DNA of 58,794 nt from Clostridia bacterium. Lineage in GTDB: Bacteria; Bacillota; Clostridia; Oscillospirales; CAG-272. The DNA is taken from positions 1 through 58,794 of the forward strand of contig JAFXAC010000053.1 of the NCBI GenBank assembly GCA_017522125.1, given 5' to 3'. Each line of letters begins with the position of its first letter. Within the stretch, counting starts at the first letter, position 1. The notes under the pieces were generated by a model. That model was not told the DNA's origin. It did no database searches and worked only from the letters and a program-made list of their open reading frames with translations. The translations under genes were made by a program, and so were the position numbers. This document shows positions 55,939-58,793 of the stretch, one piece after another.

Positions 55939-55965
55939 AAAAAAGCCCGCCCCAAAGGGGCGGGC
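55939..55965 (-). terminator. Intrinsic terminator after the SipW-signal protein gene
   Basis: Minus strand GCCCGCCCC-ttt-GGGGCGGGC followed by T6. Confidence 0.75.
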
Positions 55966-56003
55966 AAGCTTTGTTCGGGTTTAACCGAACTTTGCGCGGC
56001 TAA

Positions 56004-57446
56004 TTATCTGCCGTCAAAATCCTTGAAGGAGTTGGGATTACCGTTGATCTGCCAATCTACGTTGGTCTCGTTGATGGTGTAAGAGTCGTTCTTGTATATC
56101 AAGTGGAACTCTCTTGCAGTAACACCATTAGTATATACAGCATTAACTACGGTATCCTCGAGGTTGATAACAACGTTCTCGGCGGGAGTCTCAACTACGA
56201 TTACAGCAAAGCGGTTTGCATCAACAGGAGCAGACTTATTAATACCGGTGAGGGTACTGTTCTTAACGTTTACAACGGTGCCTTCAGACCAGATATTGAG
56301 TGCGGCATAGCCGGTGATCTCACTATCCTCGATATTGATAACAACTTCCTTGTTATCGCTTGCAACGTTGATTGCATAGTAAGAATTGTTAACGATGGTG
56401 GAGTTCTTGATGGTTACGTCAAGACCGTCGTTACCGAAGAAGGAAATACCTCTGGTATACGTAAGGTTGTTATCAACAACAAGATTGATGTTGTCGATTA
56501 CGAGAAGGGCATCAGTCTGATCCGCAACATTAACTACGCGAGTACCGTTAGCACCGCTGTAGATGGTGGATTCGCCGTCACCGATGATGGTGAGGGTACC
56601 GTTAACCTCGAGCTGCTCGGGAAGCTCGATGTCGTTGTTGATAAGAACGGTGGTAGCGCCGCCCTTAACAGCCTCAACGATCTCTGCGGTATTGGATACT
56701 ACAGGGAACTCTGCGTCTGCATCATACTGATCGTCGAAGTCGTCTTCCTCATAAGTCCACTGAGTAGCTACGAGAGTAAGACCGAACTCGATCTCGGGCT
56801 GATTTGCAAAGGTATCATCCTCGTTAGTGAGGAAGTTTGCGGTGTTGTCTACCCAAGTAGGCATGTGAACAACGATCTCGAAGATCTCCTCATCTTCGCC
56901 TGCATCAGCTCCGTCATTGGGAACGAGAGTATTGATGCCGAAGTTGGGGTTATCAACGGTCATGTCGTTGGTAGCCTCGTTGAGCTTGGTGGTTGCGAAG
57001 GGGATGTACTCGTCACGAGTGGTAGCAGCTCCCTCGGAAACAAGACCGGTGAAAAGGTAGTCGGAGAGCATGAACTCAGATCCGAAAACGTTAATGCCAG
57101 CCTTCTCGGAAAGGATGTTGATACCAAGCTTATACTTGAGTGCGAGAGTTCCTACGTTACGTACGCGGAAAGCTACAACCTCAGTATAGCCGGGCTCGTA
57201 GAGGGCGTCTTCGTTGAAGAGGTTGGTGTCTTCATTAACGGGAATCCACTCTCCAAGCTCGCCGTTTTCGTCGTATACGGCGTAATCGAGTTCAATATCG
57301 AGGTTGCCGGAAACTATTCTGTTCTTGCTGGCAACAACGGTATCGGTGAACCACGCGTAAGTGGTTCCAAGGAGCATCGAGAAGCAGATAATGATTGCCA
57401 TTACGCTTGCAAGAAGAGCTCTCTTAGTGGTCTTGCGATTCGTCAT
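56004..57446 (-). CDS. Secreted protein with a SipW-cognate (TasA/camelysin-type) signal peptide and a beta-helix-like repeat body
   Basis: KRALLASVMAIIICFSMLLGTTYAWFTD N-terminus. Repetitive N/V/T-rich C-terminal half (NNL..., VVN...). ATG 57446 preceded by AAGGAGG. Confidence 0.7.
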   Translation of the reverse strand: MTNRKTTKRALLASVMAIIICFSMLLGTTYAWFTDTVVASKNRIVSGNLDIELDYAVYDENGELGEWIPVNEDTNLFNEDALYEPGYTEVVAFRVRNVGTLALKYKLGINILSEKAGINVFGSEFMLSDYLFTGLVSEGAATTRDEYIPFATTKLNEATNDMTVDNPNFGINTLVPNDGADAGEDEEIFEIVVHMPTWVDNTANFLTNEDDTFANQPEIEFGLTLVATQWTYEEDDFDDQYDADAEFPVVSNTAEIVEAVKGGATTVLINNDIELPEQLEVNGTLTIIGDGESTIYSGANGTRVVNVADQTDALLVIDNINLVVDNNLTYTRGISFFGNDGLDVTIKNSTIVNNSYYAINVASDNKEVVINIEDSEITGYAALNIWSEGTVVNVKNSTLTGINKSAPVDANRFAVIVVETPAENVVINLEDTVVNAVYTNGVTAREFHLIYKNDSYTINETNVDWQINGNPNSFKDFDGR

Positions 57447-57646
57447 TGTTTTTTCCTCCTTAAATTTGTATTTGAGTAAAGACGAATATCTTAGCGCCAT
57501 AGGCGTTGAGATCGTTACTACGGGCGGCGCGCGGAATTTCCCAAGAATACTTTTTAATTCGTCCACTTAAATCATATAAAAAGGAAATGATGAATCGCTC
57601 CGTTGCCGCCCGCCCCTTCACTCGGGCGCCCCCGAACGAAGAAGCA

Positions 57647-57675
57647 AATACAACATAATTAGAGTTATGTTGTAA
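57647..57675. repeat. Left inverted repeat / recombinase core site (10-6-10)
   Basis: TACAACATAA-TTAGAG-TTATGTTGTA at 57649-57674. 28/29 identical to the reverse complement of 57909-57937. Confidence 0.85.
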
Positions 57676-57836
57676 AAAACATTTTAAAAAAACAAAAGAA
57701 CAGACAAAAAATAAAAACCGCATAACGAAAAAACCTTTTCGGAAATACTTTTTTAAAAAAGTTGTCTGAAAAGGTCTTTTGATATGCTTAAATGAAAAAA
57801 TGTAAAAACTTTTTGCTAATTCCTTTAAAAAAAGGG

Positions 57837-57865
57837 TTGACTTTTTATTGTTTGTATGTTATCAT
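57837..57865 (+). promoter_or_regulatory. Near-consensus promoter inside the invertible segment, currently pointing away from 56004..57446
   Basis: TTGACT (57837-57842), 17-nt spacer, TATCAT (57860-57865). Confidence 0.7.
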
Positions 57866-57908
57866 ATGAATGCGTACTGTAGGATTTTATCATCTGGCAG
57901 AGACGCAG

Positions 57909-57937
57909 TTACAACATAACTCTAATTACGTTGTATT
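57909..57937. repeat. Right inverted repeat / recombinase core site (10-6-10, spacer inverted)
   Basis: TACAACATAA-CTCTAA-TTACGTTGTA at 57910-57935. The spacer is the reverse complement of the left-site spacer. Confidence 0.85.
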
Positions 57938-57961
57938 CCCGACGCGGTCGGGCTTTTTTTA
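57938..57961 (+). terminator. Plus-strand-only intrinsic terminator immediately outside the right repeat
   Basis: CCCGAC-gcg-GTCGGG, then C and T7. On the minus strand the hairpin is followed by AATAC, so it is not a terminator for the recombinase gene. Confidence 0.8.
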
Positions 57962-57968
57962 TTGCTTT

Positions 57969-58793
57969 TTATATCAGCAAACGCATATTTTCCATCTTTT
58001 TCCTATGCTCTGCTCCGCTTTCGATTATATAGATACGCGTTGTATCTATGCTGCTGTGGCCGAGAATATCAGACAGCCTTGATATATCCTTATCAATGGA
58101 ATAGAACATTTTTGCAAAAAGGTGGCGAAGGTTGTGGGGGAACACCTTTTCAGCACTCACACGTGCCGCCGCGCAAAGAGAGCGCATCTCGCGCCAAATA
58201 TTGCTCCTGTCGAGTGGCTTGCCGCCGCGGGTAATAAATATAGCCCCTGTTGCGATCCCTCTTTTTTTAGCGTAAGCCGCAAGCCTTTTGCGCAGCTCCT
58301 TGACGATCAGCACCCTTCGCAGCTTTCCCTTGCAATTCACGATCGCCTCACCGCGCGCGAGAGATTCGACCGTGATAAACTCAAGCTCGCTGACTCGTAT
58401 ACCCGTAGCGCAAACGGTTTGAAGCAGGAGCGCCAAGCGTTCGTTTTTCCTTCGCTCCGCCTCTCGCACGAGTCGTAAATATTCCTCGCGGCAAAGCTCC
58501 CTTTCCTCTGAGCAATACACCATTCTTTGCACTCTCAACCGCTTTTGGCAAAGCTCTTCCCTGCCGCAAAATTTAAAAAACGAGTTTAGTGACGCTATTG
58601 TGCAGTTTACGCTTTGCGGCGAATATTTTTTTGTCAGCTCGTCCTTGTAGGCTCTGGCTCGCTCTGCGCTTGCCTCACCGTCCCCGATGAAATCAAGAAA
58701 ACGCCCCACGTCGCTCAGATATTTTCTTACGGTTGCCGCGCTTTTTTCAGTTCTGAATAAATAATCTTTGTATTCTTTTATATTTTTCAGCAT
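57969..58793 (-). CDS. Tyrosine site-specific recombinase (XerC/D-like phage-integrase family)
   Basis: N-terminal SAM-like core-binding domain. Catalytic residues in ATGIRVSEL (Arg), HNLRH, LGHSSIDTTRIY (His..Tyr). The ATG lies 1 nt from the window edge, so the RBS cannot be seen. Confidence 0.8.
   Translation of the reverse strand: MLKNIKEYKDYLFRTEKSAATVRKYLSDVGRFLDFIGDGEASAERARAYKDELTKKYSPQSVNCTIASLNSFFKFCGREELCQKRLRVQRMVYCSEERELCREEYLRLVREAERRKNERLALLLQTVCATGIRVSELEFITVESLARGEAIVNCKGKLRRVLIVKELRKRLAAYAKKRGIATGAIFITRGGKPLDRSNIWREMRSLCAAARVSAEKVFPHNLRHLFAKMFYSIDKDISRLSDILGHSSIDTTRIYIIESGAEHRKKMENMRLLI

What the first reader, a model, noticed from the sequence alone, without database searches (positions are those of the whole stretch)
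57647..57961. Invertible-promoter (inverton) phase switch between a tyrosine recombinase and a SipW-signal surface protein gene, currently OFF
Two 29-bp sequences (57647-57675 and 57909-57937) are inverted repeats, 28/29 identical. Each is a complete tyrosine-recombinase core site with 10-bp inverted arms around a 6-bp asymmetric spacer: TACAACATAA-TTAGAG-TTATGTTGTA and TACAACATAA-CTCTAA-TTACGTTGTA. The spacers are reverse complements, so the sites are in inverted orientation and recombination would flip the 233-bp segment between them rather than delete it. That segment carries a near-consensus promoter (TTGACT-17-TATCAT, 57837-57865). At present the promoter fires rightward, through the right site and straight into a strong plus-strand-only terminator (57938-57961). 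That terminator shields the convergent recombinase gene (57969-58793). After inversion the promoter would fire leftward, across the left site and a roughly 200-nt leader into the secreted beta-helix protein gene (ATG 57446), which otherwise has no convincing promoter. This matches the established architecture of fimS, cwpV and Bacteroides-type invertons.
Basis: partly seen in the sequence, partly recalled or inferred. Interest (0 to 1): 0.75.

Follow-up and report, generated by a model that had tools for sequence, protein, structure and literature searches.

The report
Invertible promoter switch, currently OFF
A 233-bp promoter-carrying DNA segment sits between two inverted recombination sites, next to its own Xer-like recombinase gene, and is found flipped in close relatives, so it is a genuine on/off switch for a secreted fibre-type surface protein and belongs to a large family of such switches in gut Clostridia.

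Summary

**The sites.** Two 26-bp core sites, TACAACRTAA-N6-TTAYGTTGTA, lie at 57649-57674 and 57910-57935. Their spacers (TTAGAG and CTCTAA) are reverse complements. They flank a 27% GC segment that carries a near-consensus extended -10 promoter.

**The current state.** That promoter now points at the 3' end of a catalytically intact 274-aa Xer-like tyrosine recombinase gene. It points away from a gene for a SipW-signal, TasA-like plus beta-helix protein.

**Evidence that it flips.**
- A relative whose recombinase is 88% identical (L128) has collinear flanks but the segment flipped exactly at the sites (ON).
- A contig 98% identical to the window (L129) has the ON junction.
- The six distinct contigs that are identical or 97% identical in the recombinase are all OFF.

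**The family.**
- The same core recurs in at least 73 Clostridia loci as pairs 147-423 bp apart.
- The spacers differ between loci but are exact reverse complements within each locus (79 of 87 pairs, none direct).
- In 61 of these loci a homologous recombinase gene abuts one site.
- One homologue shows both orientations among ten contigs that encode the identical protein.

**Verdict.** It is a new member of a known kind, a tyrosine-recombinase inverton. It probably belongs to the Clostridia "inverton group 139" reported in 2025, though I could not confirm that by sequence.

The parts
57969..58793 (-). Gene for a 274-aa Xer-like tyrosine recombinase (the putative invertase). Its promoter and RBS lie just outside the window.
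   Evidence: Pfam Phage_int_SAM_1 plus Phage_integrase. The best NCBIfam matches are XerA/XerC/XerD, all below cut-off. The closest solved structures are archaeal XerA 4a8e and 5hxy. R133, K155/157, H220, R223, H246 and Y255 are at least 97% conserved in 52 switch-adjacent homologues. The upstream terminator, promoter-like site and RBS are seen in L001.
57938..57961 (+). Hairpin plus T7 tail (intrinsic-terminator-like), placed to stop the OFF-state promoter before it runs antisense into the recombinase gene.
   Evidence: -8.7 kcal/mol; the T tail is on the + strand only. The stem is kept in L127 and L128, with changes in or next to the loop. An equivalent element is present in 10 of 43 family modules.
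57909..57937 (.). Recombinase-proximal recombination site (core 57910-57935: TACAACATAA-CTCTAA-TTACGTTGTA).
   Evidence: The single arm mismatch (G) lies in the outer arm and stays next to the recombinase gene in both the OFF and ON relatives.
57676..57908 (.). Invertible segment, 233 bp, 27% GC.
   Evidence: It is 99.6% identical but reverse-complemented relative to the flanks in L128. Its promoter end is joined to the target-proximal site in L129. GC content.
57837..57865 (+). Sigma-70-type promoter TTGACT-17-TATCAT with an extended -10 TG (57857-57858) and an upstream A/T tract. It now fires towards the recombinase gene (OFF).
   Evidence: A comparable promoter whose -10 ends 33-35 or 41-45 bp from the exit site is found in 30 of the 43 family modules with a clear promoter.
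57728..57780 (.). A-tract/hairpin/T-tract inside the segment, resembling a bidirectional terminator. On the minus strand it is followed by UUUUUUCG and would stop recombinase read-through in the OFF state.
   Evidence: strand folding gives -16.9 kcal/mol (minus strand, z -4.8) and -18.4 kcal/mol (plus strand, z -4.4). 25 of 43 family modules have an antisense terminator-like hairpin upstream of the promoter.
57647..57675 (.). Target-proximal recombination site (core 57649-57674: TACAACATAA-TTAGAG-TTATGTTGTA).
57447..57646 (-). 200-nt structured 5' leader of the target gene, with RBS AAGGAGG at 57455-57461. No promoter-like site was found on this strand.
   Evidence: no minus-strand promoter match. 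(-74.6 kcal/mol, z -4.3). (no Rfam match).
56004..57446 (-). Target gene: a 480-aa secreted protein with a SipW-dependent-type signal peptide, a TasA-like domain and a C-terminal right-handed beta-helix.
   Evidence: TIGR04088 at 23 bits against a cut-off of 19. The identical protein is named 'SipW-dependent-type signal peptide-containing protein' by NCBI. AlphaFold model with pLDDT 79 overall and mostly above 90 from residue 301. Foldseek best hit is the TasA fibre 8aur (E 5e-5), followed by PL6/pectate-lyase/tailspike beta-helices.
55945..55965 (.). Bidirectional terminator that closes the single-gene target unit.
   Evidence: 9-bp all-GC stem. On the minus strand it is followed by TTTTTTAGTA.

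Best explanation
This is a phase-variation switch (an inverton). The adjacent 274-aa Xer-like tyrosine recombinase should bind the four conserved 10-bp arms (TACAACATAA), pair the two sites, and exchange strands across the identical but inverted 6-bp spacers. This flips the 233-bp segment.

In the orientation present in the window (OFF), the segment's strong promoter fires towards the recombinase gene and is stopped by a hairpin plus T-tail at 57938-57961. Read-through from the recombinase gene is stopped by a terminator-like hairpin inside the segment, so the target gene is silent.

After inversion (ON), the same promoter reads through the target-proximal site and a 200-nt leader into the gene for a SipW-signal, TasA-like plus beta-helix surface protein.

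Shown: the sites, their orientation, natural occurrence of both orientations with breakpoints inside the sites, an intact recombinase, and family-wide conservation of this layout.

Inferred: that this recombinase is the catalyst, that the promoter and terminators work as predicted, and the switching rate.
For: Sites and chance level.

Promoter and terminators.

Flipped state in nature:
- L128 (recombinase 88% identical) has flanks collinear with the window at 93-95% identity. The 233-bp segment is 99.6% identical but inverted, with breakpoints inside the 26-bp cores.
- L129 matches the window's target side at 98.25% and starts with window 57882-57908 joined to the target-proximal site, which is the ON junction.

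Family evidence:
- 73 genome loci hold site pairs 147-423 bp apart. In 79 of 87 pairs the spacers are exact reverse complements, and in none are they direct. Chance is 1/4096 per pair. There are 52 distinct spacers among 61 modules.
- In 61 loci a homologous recombinase gene (E 1e-50 to 1e-105 for nearly all) ends within about 130 bp of a site in all but one (258 bp) and points into the switch.
- The promoter points to the recombinase in 37 modules and to the target in 6.
- In the converse test, 4 of 4 recombinase homologues chosen without regard to sites have such a pair downstream.
- Ten contigs encoding the identical homologue P0082 show both orientations (4 OFF, 6 ON), with the inner arms swapped exactly as predicted.

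Recombinase: the catalytic residues are intact.

Literature:
- Read-level flipping has been shown for a Clostridia inverton group with 26-bp inverted repeats about 230 bp apart and an adjacent tyrosine recombinase (PMC11892184).
- The logic of 'conserved arms plus a switch-specific 6-bp spacer' has been proposed for C. difficile RecV (PMC12282940).
Against: All six distinct contigs whose recombinase is identical or 97% identical to the window's are OFF. Switching in this lineage may therefore be rare or strongly OFF-biased. No reads were mapped. The ON examples come from a more divergent MAG and from one short contig. Promoter and terminator calls are consensus or energy predictions, and the shield hairpin is not stronger than shuffled sequence. 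No experiment links this recombinase to these sites. A fixed promoter of non-sigma-70 type in the leader cannot be excluded.
Confidence: 0.88

Rival explanations
1. It is a fossil switch. The segment inverted in the past, which explains the L128 versus window difference, but it no longer flips in this strain and the gene is permanently off or driven otherwise.
For: All six distinct contigs whose recombinase is identical or 97% identical are in the same OFF orientation. One arm carries a mismatch.
Against: The recombinase ORF and catalytic residues are intact. The spacers are still perfectly matched. A 98%-identical contig has the ON junction and breaks inside the segment, as assemblies of mixed populations do. 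The segment is more conserved than its flanks (99.6% against 93-95%). The mismatched arm variant TTACGTTGTA also occurs in other family sites.
Confidence: 0.06
2. The recombinase is the integrase of the neighbouring prophage, and the repeats are attachment-site relics rather than a regulatory switch.
For: Just beyond the window end lie a P22-type portal gene and a major head protein gene (phrog_267, 1e-48), and these are conserved in L001, L127 and L128. The recombinase matches the PHROG integrase families.
Against: The sites are inverted, 233 bp apart and both on one side of the gene, not direct repeats flanking an element. A 13-bp-stem terminator and a separate promoter-like site isolate the recombinase gene from the phage genes. 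None of the other 120 site-bearing loci contains homologues of these phage proteins. No match was found in 2.9 million viral contigs. The protein has no extra arm-binding region: the SAM-like and catalytic domains fill its 274 aa.
Confidence: 0.02
3. It is a chromosome-dimer-resolution (dif) site served by a single Xer recombinase.
For: The recombinase is most similar to XerA/XerC/XerD. The arm TTATGTTGTA resembles the XerD-side arm of dif (TTATGTTAAAT in E. coli; my own knowledge).
Against: There are two sites in inverted orientation with a promoter between them. Scores are far below every Xer equivalog cut-off: 128 against 220, 114 against 335, 110 against 330. Spacers differ between loci, and one MAG has three such pairs (L021, L036, L111). 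dif is a single conserved site.
Confidence: 0.01
4. The switch's main output is not the surface-protein gene. It instead sets recombinase level through antisense transcription, or produces a roughly 90-nt RNA in the present orientation.
For: In the present orientation the promoter should produce a short RNA ending at 57961. In 11 of the 43 family modules with a clear promoter (16 of all 61) the recombinase stop codon is the TAA of the outer arm and there is no shield terminator, so the OFF promoter must read antisense into the recombinase gene.
Against: In this window a terminator separates the promoter from the recombinase gene. Across the family the gene on the far side is co-oriented with the ON promoter and is often a secreted or surface protein, pilin or polysaccharide-operon gene. 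This may be an added layer rather than an alternative.
Confidence: 0.03

Closest known systems
Clostridia 'inverton group 139' with tyrosine 'invertase group 35' (hCom2 defined-community study, Microbiome 2025, PMC11892184)
   Same: The taxon matches: 32 of 33 invertons are in Clostridia, across 17 strains. A tyrosine recombinase gene lies next to nearly every inverton. The geometry matches, for example Clostridium sp. D5 with 26-bp repeats whose starts are 231 bp apart, compared with 26-bp cores 261 bp apart here and a family median of 240. Read-level flipping was shown there.
   Different: The repeat motif of group 139 is only in a figure or table that I could not read, so identity with TACAACATAA-N6-TTATGTTGTA is unproven. 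That paper gives no mechanistic dissection (arms, spacer code, internal terminator) and does not include this organism.
Clostridioides difficile RecV switches (flgB, cwpV, cmrRST, pdcB and others)
   Same: Both use a tyrosine recombinase. Each repeat is two binding motifs around a 6-bp spacer. [quoted passage not shown] Targets are surface or motility functions in a clostridial host.
   Different: RecV lacks an N-terminal DNA-binding domain and acts in trans on at least six switches (PMC12282940). Here the recombinase has a SAM-like N-domain, and in most loci each switch has its own adjacent gene (61 of 73). From my own knowledge, cwpV and flgB act through leader or terminator effects with the promoter outside the segment. 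Here the promoter is inside the segment.
E. coli fimS with FimB/FimE
   Same: A short invertible segment carries a sigma-70 promoter next to the recombinase gene(s). It gives ON/OFF control of a surface fibre, and the population is OFF-biased.
   Different: FimB/FimE are about 200-aa enzymes of a different subfamily; the window protein scores 23-27 bits against cut-offs of 221-222. From my own knowledge, fimS has 9-bp repeats and needs IHF and Lrp. Here the sites are full dif-like 26-bp cores.
Xer/dif systems with a single recombinase (archaeal XerA, XerH/difH, XerS/difSL)
   Same: These are the closest relatives by sequence and domain architecture (XerA 4a8e, E 5e-22). The core site is palindromic with a 6-bp spacer and ATAA/TTAT inner arm ends, as in dif (my own knowledge).
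   Different: The function is inversion of a promoter between two sites, not resolution at one site. Spacers vary from locus to locus. Scores fall below all equivalog cut-offs.
Bacteroides invertible promoters (Tsr tyrosine invertases; Mpi serine invertase)
   Same: They are gut-commensal switches for surface proteins and polysaccharides. The regulated gene classes overlap: NusG/UpxY-like antiterminators, Wzz-like proteins, pilins and secreted proteins (PMC11892184).
   Different: They use different repeat motifs, a different promoter type and different recombinase subfamilies. Many Bacteroides switches are served in trans by one master invertase (my own knowledge).

Membership tests
Tyrosine-recombinase inverton (invertible promoter switch) | Two recombination sites in inverted orientation flanking a short segment | tested here: met
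   Arms 57647-57675 and 57909-57937 match at 28/29, and the spacers TTAGAG and CTCTAA are reverse complements. None is expected by chance.
Tyrosine-recombinase inverton (invertible promoter switch) | The segment occurs in both orientations in natural DNA, with breakpoints in the repeats | tested here: met
   L128 has the segment flipped between collinear flanks, and L129 has the ON junction at 98% identity. Reads from a single population were not examined.
Tyrosine-recombinase inverton (invertible promoter switch) | An outward-reading promoter inside the segment, and a downstream gene without its own promoter | tested here: inconclusive
   The consensus scan finds TTGACT-17-TATCAT with TG inside the segment and nothing on the minus strand of the leader. 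The same layout is seen in 43 family modules. Transcription was not measured.
Tyrosine-recombinase inverton (invertible promoter switch) | A nearby tyrosine recombinase with the complete catalytic set R-K-H-R-H/W-Y | tested here: met
   R133, K155/157, H220, R223, H246 and Y255 are present when aligned to XerA 4a8e and to 52 homologues.
Tyrosine-recombinase inverton (invertible promoter switch) | The recombinase catalyses the inversion | not testable with these tools
   This needs co-expression or a knockout. The support is only by association: in 61 of 73 loci the homologous gene abuts the switch, and 4 of 4 homologues picked by protein have a switch.
Xer/dif chromosome dimer resolution (XerC, XerD, XerA, XerS) | The protein reaches the NCBIfam equivalog cut-off | tested here: not met
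   XerA_Arch 128 against 220, XerC 113.6 against 335, XerD 109.5 against 330, XerS 64 against 267.
Xer/dif chromosome dimer resolution (XerC, XerD, XerA, XerS) | A single conserved site per replicon | tested here: not met
   There are two inverted sites 233 bp apart. The spacer differs in nearly every locus (52 distinct among 61), and one MAG has three pairs.
FimB/FimE-type DNA invertases (NF007370/NF007371) | The protein reaches the subfamily cut-off, and is about 200 aa with no N-terminal core-binding domain | tested here: not met
   23-27 bits against cut-offs of 221-222. Phage_int_SAM_1 domain at residues 5-79.
C. difficile RecV-type switches | A catalytic-domain-only recombinase acting in trans on several switches | tested here: not met
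   The window protein has an N-terminal SAM-like domain and is encoded beside its switch. RecV is described as lacking that domain (PMC12282940). No direct sequence comparison with RecV was possible.
C. difficile RecV-type switches | Sites are two binding motifs around a 6-bp spacer that is unique to each switch | tested here: met
   10-bp arms with ACATAA invariant. 52 distinct spacers among 61 modules, always matched within a pair.
Temperate-phage integrase with att sites | Direct-repeat att sites at the two ends of the element, and the integrase is part of the phage genome | tested here: not met
   The sites are inverted and adjacent. A terminator and a separate promoter-like site separate the gene from the head and portal genes. 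There is no phage linkage in the other loci and no hit in viral contigs.
hCom2 inverton group 139 / invertase group 35 (PMC11892184) | A shared inverted-repeat motif | not testable with these tools
   The motif is not in the held text or supplements. Taxon, repeat length, spacing and adjacent tyrosine recombinase agree.
SipW-dependent-type signal peptide proteins (TIGR04088), for the target gene | The N-terminal signal matches the model above its cut-off | tested here: met
   23 bits against a cut-off of 19, residues 16-49. Close homologues elsewhere sit in an operon with a weakly S24/S26-like peptidase gene.

The most novel reading that the evidence does not exclude
The window holds one copy of a self-contained, Xer-derived 'switch cassette'. 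The cassette consists of a recombinase gene, two dif-like sites, an internal bidirectional terminator and an outward promoter at a fixed distance from the exit site. It has spread through gut Clostridia and been placed in front of many unrelated surface genes. The 6-bp spacer acts as an address code that lets many paralogous switches coexist in one genome without cross-talk. The same site family also builds multi-site switches (P0082 loci) and possibly multi-gene promoter-swap systems (Vescimonas). This family has been catalogued at most as an unnamed inverton group and has not been dissected mechanistically.
Probability: 0.45. Interest if true: 0.6.

Novelty: new member of a known kind. Interest (0 to 1): 0.45.

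Why it matters
Phase-variable surface structures shape how gut bacteria meet phages, immunity and mucus. Outside Bacteroides and C. difficile the switches are mostly only listed, not understood. This locus is a clean example, supported by natural variants, in an uncultured Clostridia lineage.

The comparison also yields a practical rule: conserved TACAACATAA arms, locus-specific reverse-complement spacers and an adjacent recombinase gene of about 280 aa. That rule could be used to find and orient hundreds of Clostridia switches from assemblies alone. It could also be used to design orthogonal recombinase/site pairs.

For this window itself the result is confirmatory rather than surprising.

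Tried and rejected
- **Viral contigs.** Scanning 2.9 million viral contigs for the core site gave nothing, so a phage origin of the switch is not supported.
- **Rfam.** There were no matches on the leader or switch at E<=1, and none on the whole window at gathering scores. The window has no tRNA genes. The structured leader is therefore not a known riboswitch.
- **Literature search for the arm strings.** This returned only unrelated primer hits. Searches for inverton, tyrosine recombinase and Clostridia found essentially one relevant paper.
- **PhaseFinder paper.** The original paper (PMC6543533) is not held.
- **JGI metagenome scan.** Scanning for this locus's own site gave a single contig. 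It was useful, but too few to estimate an ON:OFF ratio.
- **Close target homologues.** P0122 and P0125, looked up to find more copies of the switch, sit instead in a sipW/tasA-like operon with no sites.
- **Phage-gene linkage.** This was tested across the 120 family loci and was absent.
- **Pfam scan of ten upstream genes (42-54 kb).** This showed housekeeping functions only and no SipW peptidase.
- **Prophage-integrase and dif readings.** Both were considered and rejected (see the rival explanations).
Full report
**1. The observation**

- The repeat finder gives inverted arms 57647-57675 and 57909-57937: 29 nt, 97% complementary, 233 nt apart.
- The 26-bp core TACAACRTAATTAGAGTTATGTTGTA occurs exactly twice in the window with up to three mismatches allowed, once on each strand. 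None is expected in shuffles.
- Each core is itself a palindrome of two 10-bp arms. Orientation is therefore defined only by the 6-bp spacers, TTAGAG on the left and CTCTAA on the right, which are reverse complements.
- The segment between the sites is 27% GC in a 51% GC window.
- It contains TTGACT-17-TATCAT with a TG extended -10 at 57837-57865 on the + strand. This is the best promoter-like match in the 3 kb scanned.
- Immediately right of the right-hand site is a 6-bp GC-rich hairpin followed by T7, with the tail on the + strand only. Its folding energy (-8.7 kcal/mol) is not better than shuffled sequence, so it is a plausible terminator rather than a strong one.

**2. The genes on either side**

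- ORF 57969-58793 (-) encodes 274 aa with an N-terminal SAM-like domain and a tyrosine-recombinase catalytic domain.
- NCBIfam places it nearest XerA, XerC and XerD, but far below their cut-offs. It is very far from the FimB/FimE-type invertase models.
- The nearest solved structures are archaeal XerA (4a8e, 5hxy), then XerD and XerH.
- The catalytic residues R133, K155/K157, H220, R223, H246 and Y255 are present. They are at least 97% conserved among 52 homologues found next to similar switches.
- The window ends one base beyond the ATG. On a longer contig carrying the identical gene (L001), the ATG is preceded by a GGAGG RBS, a promoter-like TTGATT-18-TAAAAT and a 13-bp-stem terminator. The ORF is therefore complete and forms its own transcription unit.
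- The other neighbour, 56004-57446 (-), starts at an ATG with a good RBS.
- It has a SipW-dependent-type signal peptide above the TIGR04088 cut-off. NCBI names the identical protein accordingly.
- In an AlphaFold model built on 39 homologues, it folds into a TasA-like domain followed by a confidently predicted right-handed beta-helix.
- A GC-rich bidirectional terminator at 55945-65 closes this single-gene unit.
- Recombinase and target are co-directional. The promoter in the segment currently points against both.

**3. Direct evidence that the segment flips**

- I fetched contigs that encode the identical recombinase (five distinct contigs, L001-L005) and its 97% relative (L127). All have the window's orientation.
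- A MAG contig whose recombinase is 88% identical (L128, GCA_045544735.1) has the same gene order and near-identical flanks (93-95%). The 233-bp segment is 99.6% identical but reverse-complemented, and the change of orientation falls inside the two 26-bp cores. In L128 the promoter therefore reads into the leader and the SipW-protein gene.
- The single arm mismatch (G) stays next to the recombinase gene in both states. This is expected if exchange occurs in the spacer and the outer arms do not move.
- The one JGI metagenome contig that contains this locus's site (L129) is 98.25% identical to window 55962-57675. It begins 27 nt inside the segment with the promoter end joined to the target-proximal site, which is the ON junction.
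I could not map reads from a single population.

**4. A large family with the same design**

Nearly all are in Clostridia: Oscillospiraceae, Lachnospiraceae, Acutalibacteraceae and others.
- Allowing up to four arm mismatches, 73 loci hold a pair of sites 147-423 bp apart (median 240).
- In 79 of 87 pairs the spacers are exact reverse complements, and in none are they identical in direct orientation.
- The spacer itself differs from locus to locus, with 52 distinct sequences in 61 modules, while arm positions 5-10 (ACATAA) are invariant apart from six scattered substitutions.
- This covariation, with arms kept, spacers free between loci and always matched within a pair, is what selection for recombination between the two sites predicts.
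- In 61 of the 73 loci a homologue of the window recombinase (39-57% identity) ends within about 130 bp of one site in all but one (258 bp), always pointing into the switch. In 16 of the 61, its stop codon is the TAA of the outer arm.
- In the 43 modules with a clear promoter, the -10 ends 33-35 or 41-45 bp from the exit site in 30.
- 25 of the 43 have a terminator-like hairpin upstream of the promoter on the opposite strand. 10 of the 43 have a shield terminator like the window's.
- The promoter points to the recombinase in 37 modules and to the far-side gene in 6.
- Where recognisable, the far-side genes are mostly secreted or surface proteins, a type IV pilin, Wzz-like and NusG-like starts of polysaccharide operons, and glycosyltransferases.

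**5. The converse test**

The loci in section 4 were ascertained by the site. I therefore also picked four recombinase homologues from the protein search without regard to sites.
- All four have a downstream pair of CATAA-N6-TTATG sites with reverse-complement spacers.
- For one of them (P0082), ten contigs from different samples encode the identical protein.
- Their central segment of about 237 bp is in one orientation in four contigs and reverse-complemented in six.
- The inner arms are exchanged exactly as predicted. The number of tandem sites on either side also varies: 3+1, 2+2, 2+1, 1+3 and 2+3.
- This is within-species evidence that the family's sites recombine in nature.

**6. Mechanism proposed**

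- The recombinase binds the four arms, synapses the two cores and exchanges strands across the 6-bp spacers, inverting 57676-57908.
- OFF (the window's state): transcripts from the promoter start near 57872, cross the recombinase-proximal site and end at the hairpin plus T7 tail at 57938-57961.
- Also in OFF: transcripts of the recombinase gene, which has no terminator of its own, enter the segment and meet the A-tract/hairpin/T-tract at 57728-57780. On that strand the hairpin is followed by UUUUUUCG (-16.9 kcal/mol, z -4.8).
- ON: the promoter reads through the target-proximal site and the structured 200-nt leader into the target gene.
- The leader folds at -74.6 kcal/mol (z -4.3), has no Rfam match and has no promoter-like site of its own.
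- The sites, orientation states and conservation are shown. Catalysis by this protein, promoter and terminator activity, and switching rate are inferred.

**7. Rivals**

- **Prophage integrase.** This is suggested by the portal and major-head genes just outside the window. Against it are the inverted, adjacent sites, the terminator and promoter that isolate the recombinase gene, the absence of such phage genes in the other loci and the absence of hits in viral contigs.
- **dif site.** This is contradicted by the paired inverted sites, the variable spacers, the several pairs per genome and the sub-threshold Xer scores.
- **Fossil switch.** This cannot be excluded, because all the closest contigs are OFF. 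It is made unlikely by the intact enzyme, the perfectly matched spacers, the 98%-identical ON contig and a segment more conserved than its flanks.
- **Regulatory output on the recombinase itself (antisense).** This is possible in family members that lack the shield terminator. It would be an addition rather than an alternative.

**8. Comparison with what is known**

- It works like fimS, the C. difficile RecV switches and Bacteroides invertible promoters.
- It is not a member of the FimB/FimE subfamily.
- It differs from RecV in having an N-terminal domain and a cis-encoded enzyme per switch. It shares RecV's proposed 'binding motifs plus switch-specific 6-bp spacer' logic (PMC12282940).
- By sequence and site it is a Xer/dif derivative.
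- A 2025 survey of a defined gut community reports 'inverton group 139': 33 invertons, 32 of them in Clostridia, across 17 strains. It has 26-bp repeats about 230 bp apart and an adjacent tyrosine recombinase, and read-level flipping was shown (PMC11892184).
- This is very probably the same family, but its motif is not in the text I could read.
- The arm strings themselves appear in no relevant paper held.

**9. Verdict**

The finding is real and correctly interpreted. It is a new member of a known kind. The family-level regularities documented here go beyond what I found in the literature and raise the interest somewhat. These regularities are the dif-like core, the spacer code, the cassette layout and the multi-site variants. 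The locus itself is confirmatory.

Noticed in passing
L014:2200, L028:543, L033:1418 and 6756, L029:1654(-), L056:1136, L066:7027(-), L067:49/3914/6300, L083:7154, L107:68: In Vescimonas sanitatis and two uncultured Oscillospiraceae MAGs from the same Hadza study, the same core with one fixed spacer (TACAACATAA-TGATGT-TTACGTTGTA) sits about 60 bp upstream of many paralogous genes that start MKKIIATVL and share a conserved 5' UTR. Most copies have a terminator-like or 'silent' upstream flank. Two copies (L056, L067:49) have an upstream flank with an extended -10-like TGTGGTATACT. This looks like a multi-gene promoter-swap system, similar to Mycoplasma vsa/vpma with Xer1.
   Followed up: partly
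L135-L144, 30-400 bp downstream of the recombinase gene: Ten contigs encoding the identical recombinase homologue P0082 carry three to five sites with the same spacer. They are arranged as tandem copies 31-32 bp apart on either side of the segment, in the patterns 3+1, 2+2, 2+1, 1+3 and 2+3. This implies recombination between alternative site pairs, that is, a nested multi-site switch.
   Followed up: partly
Beyond window end; L001:1-3896 (also L127, L128): A P22-type portal gene, a 174-aa gene, a major head protein gene (phrog_267, 1e-48) and a 416-aa gene of unknown function lie directly upstream of the recombinase gene on the same strand. They are conserved in relatives down to 88% recombinase identity. 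Several assemblies break about 1.95 kb upstream of the recombinase gene (L002, L003, L004).
   Followed up: partly
window 57447-57646 (-): The 200-nt leader of the target gene is GC-rich in parts and is predicted to fold strongly (-74.6 kcal/mol, z -4.3), with two long GC hairpins. It has no Rfam match and its function is unknown.
   Followed up: partly
L024, L031, L039, L049, L055, L057, L059, L060, L061, L063, L070, L071, L079, L084, L104 (recombinase stop / outer arm): In 16 of the 61 family modules (15 of them listed under 'where') the recombinase ORF ends at the TAA of the outer arm (TACAACATAA) and there is no room for a shield terminator. The OFF-state promoter must then transcribe antisense into the recombinase gene, which may be a built-in feedback on switching.
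   Followed up: no
43 family modules: The distance from the end of the -10 hexamer to the exit site clusters at 33-35 and 41-45 bp, about one helical turn apart. This suggests a phasing constraint between the promoter and the recombination site.
   Followed up: no
L021, L036, L111 (one MAG, JAUNQD01): Three switch-like site pairs occur in one genome, each with a different spacer (TAACTG, CACCCA, TATACG). None has an adjacent recombinase gene within the 8-kb loci, so there are also trans-served switches in this family.
   Followed up: no
L051:815-1049 and L116:34-268 (one MAG, CAZGJC01): The same pair of sites appears on two contigs of one assembly, next to a contig end in L116, with the arm combinations exchanged. 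This may be both orientations of one switch assembled separately.
   Followed up: no
L155:1-3973, L156:1-3281: Proteins 85-93% identical to the window's target are encoded elsewhere without any switch. They form the last gene of an operon with two other camelysin/TasA-like genes and a 241-aa protein with weak S24/S26 signal-peptidase matches, probably SipW.
   Followed up: partly
L128:5346-7418 versus window 56004-57446: The gene under the switch differs in the ON relative: 690 aa instead of 480 aa, at 49% identity over about half the length. The switch segment is nonetheless 99.6% identical. The regulated surface protein therefore diversifies faster than its switch.
   Followed up: no
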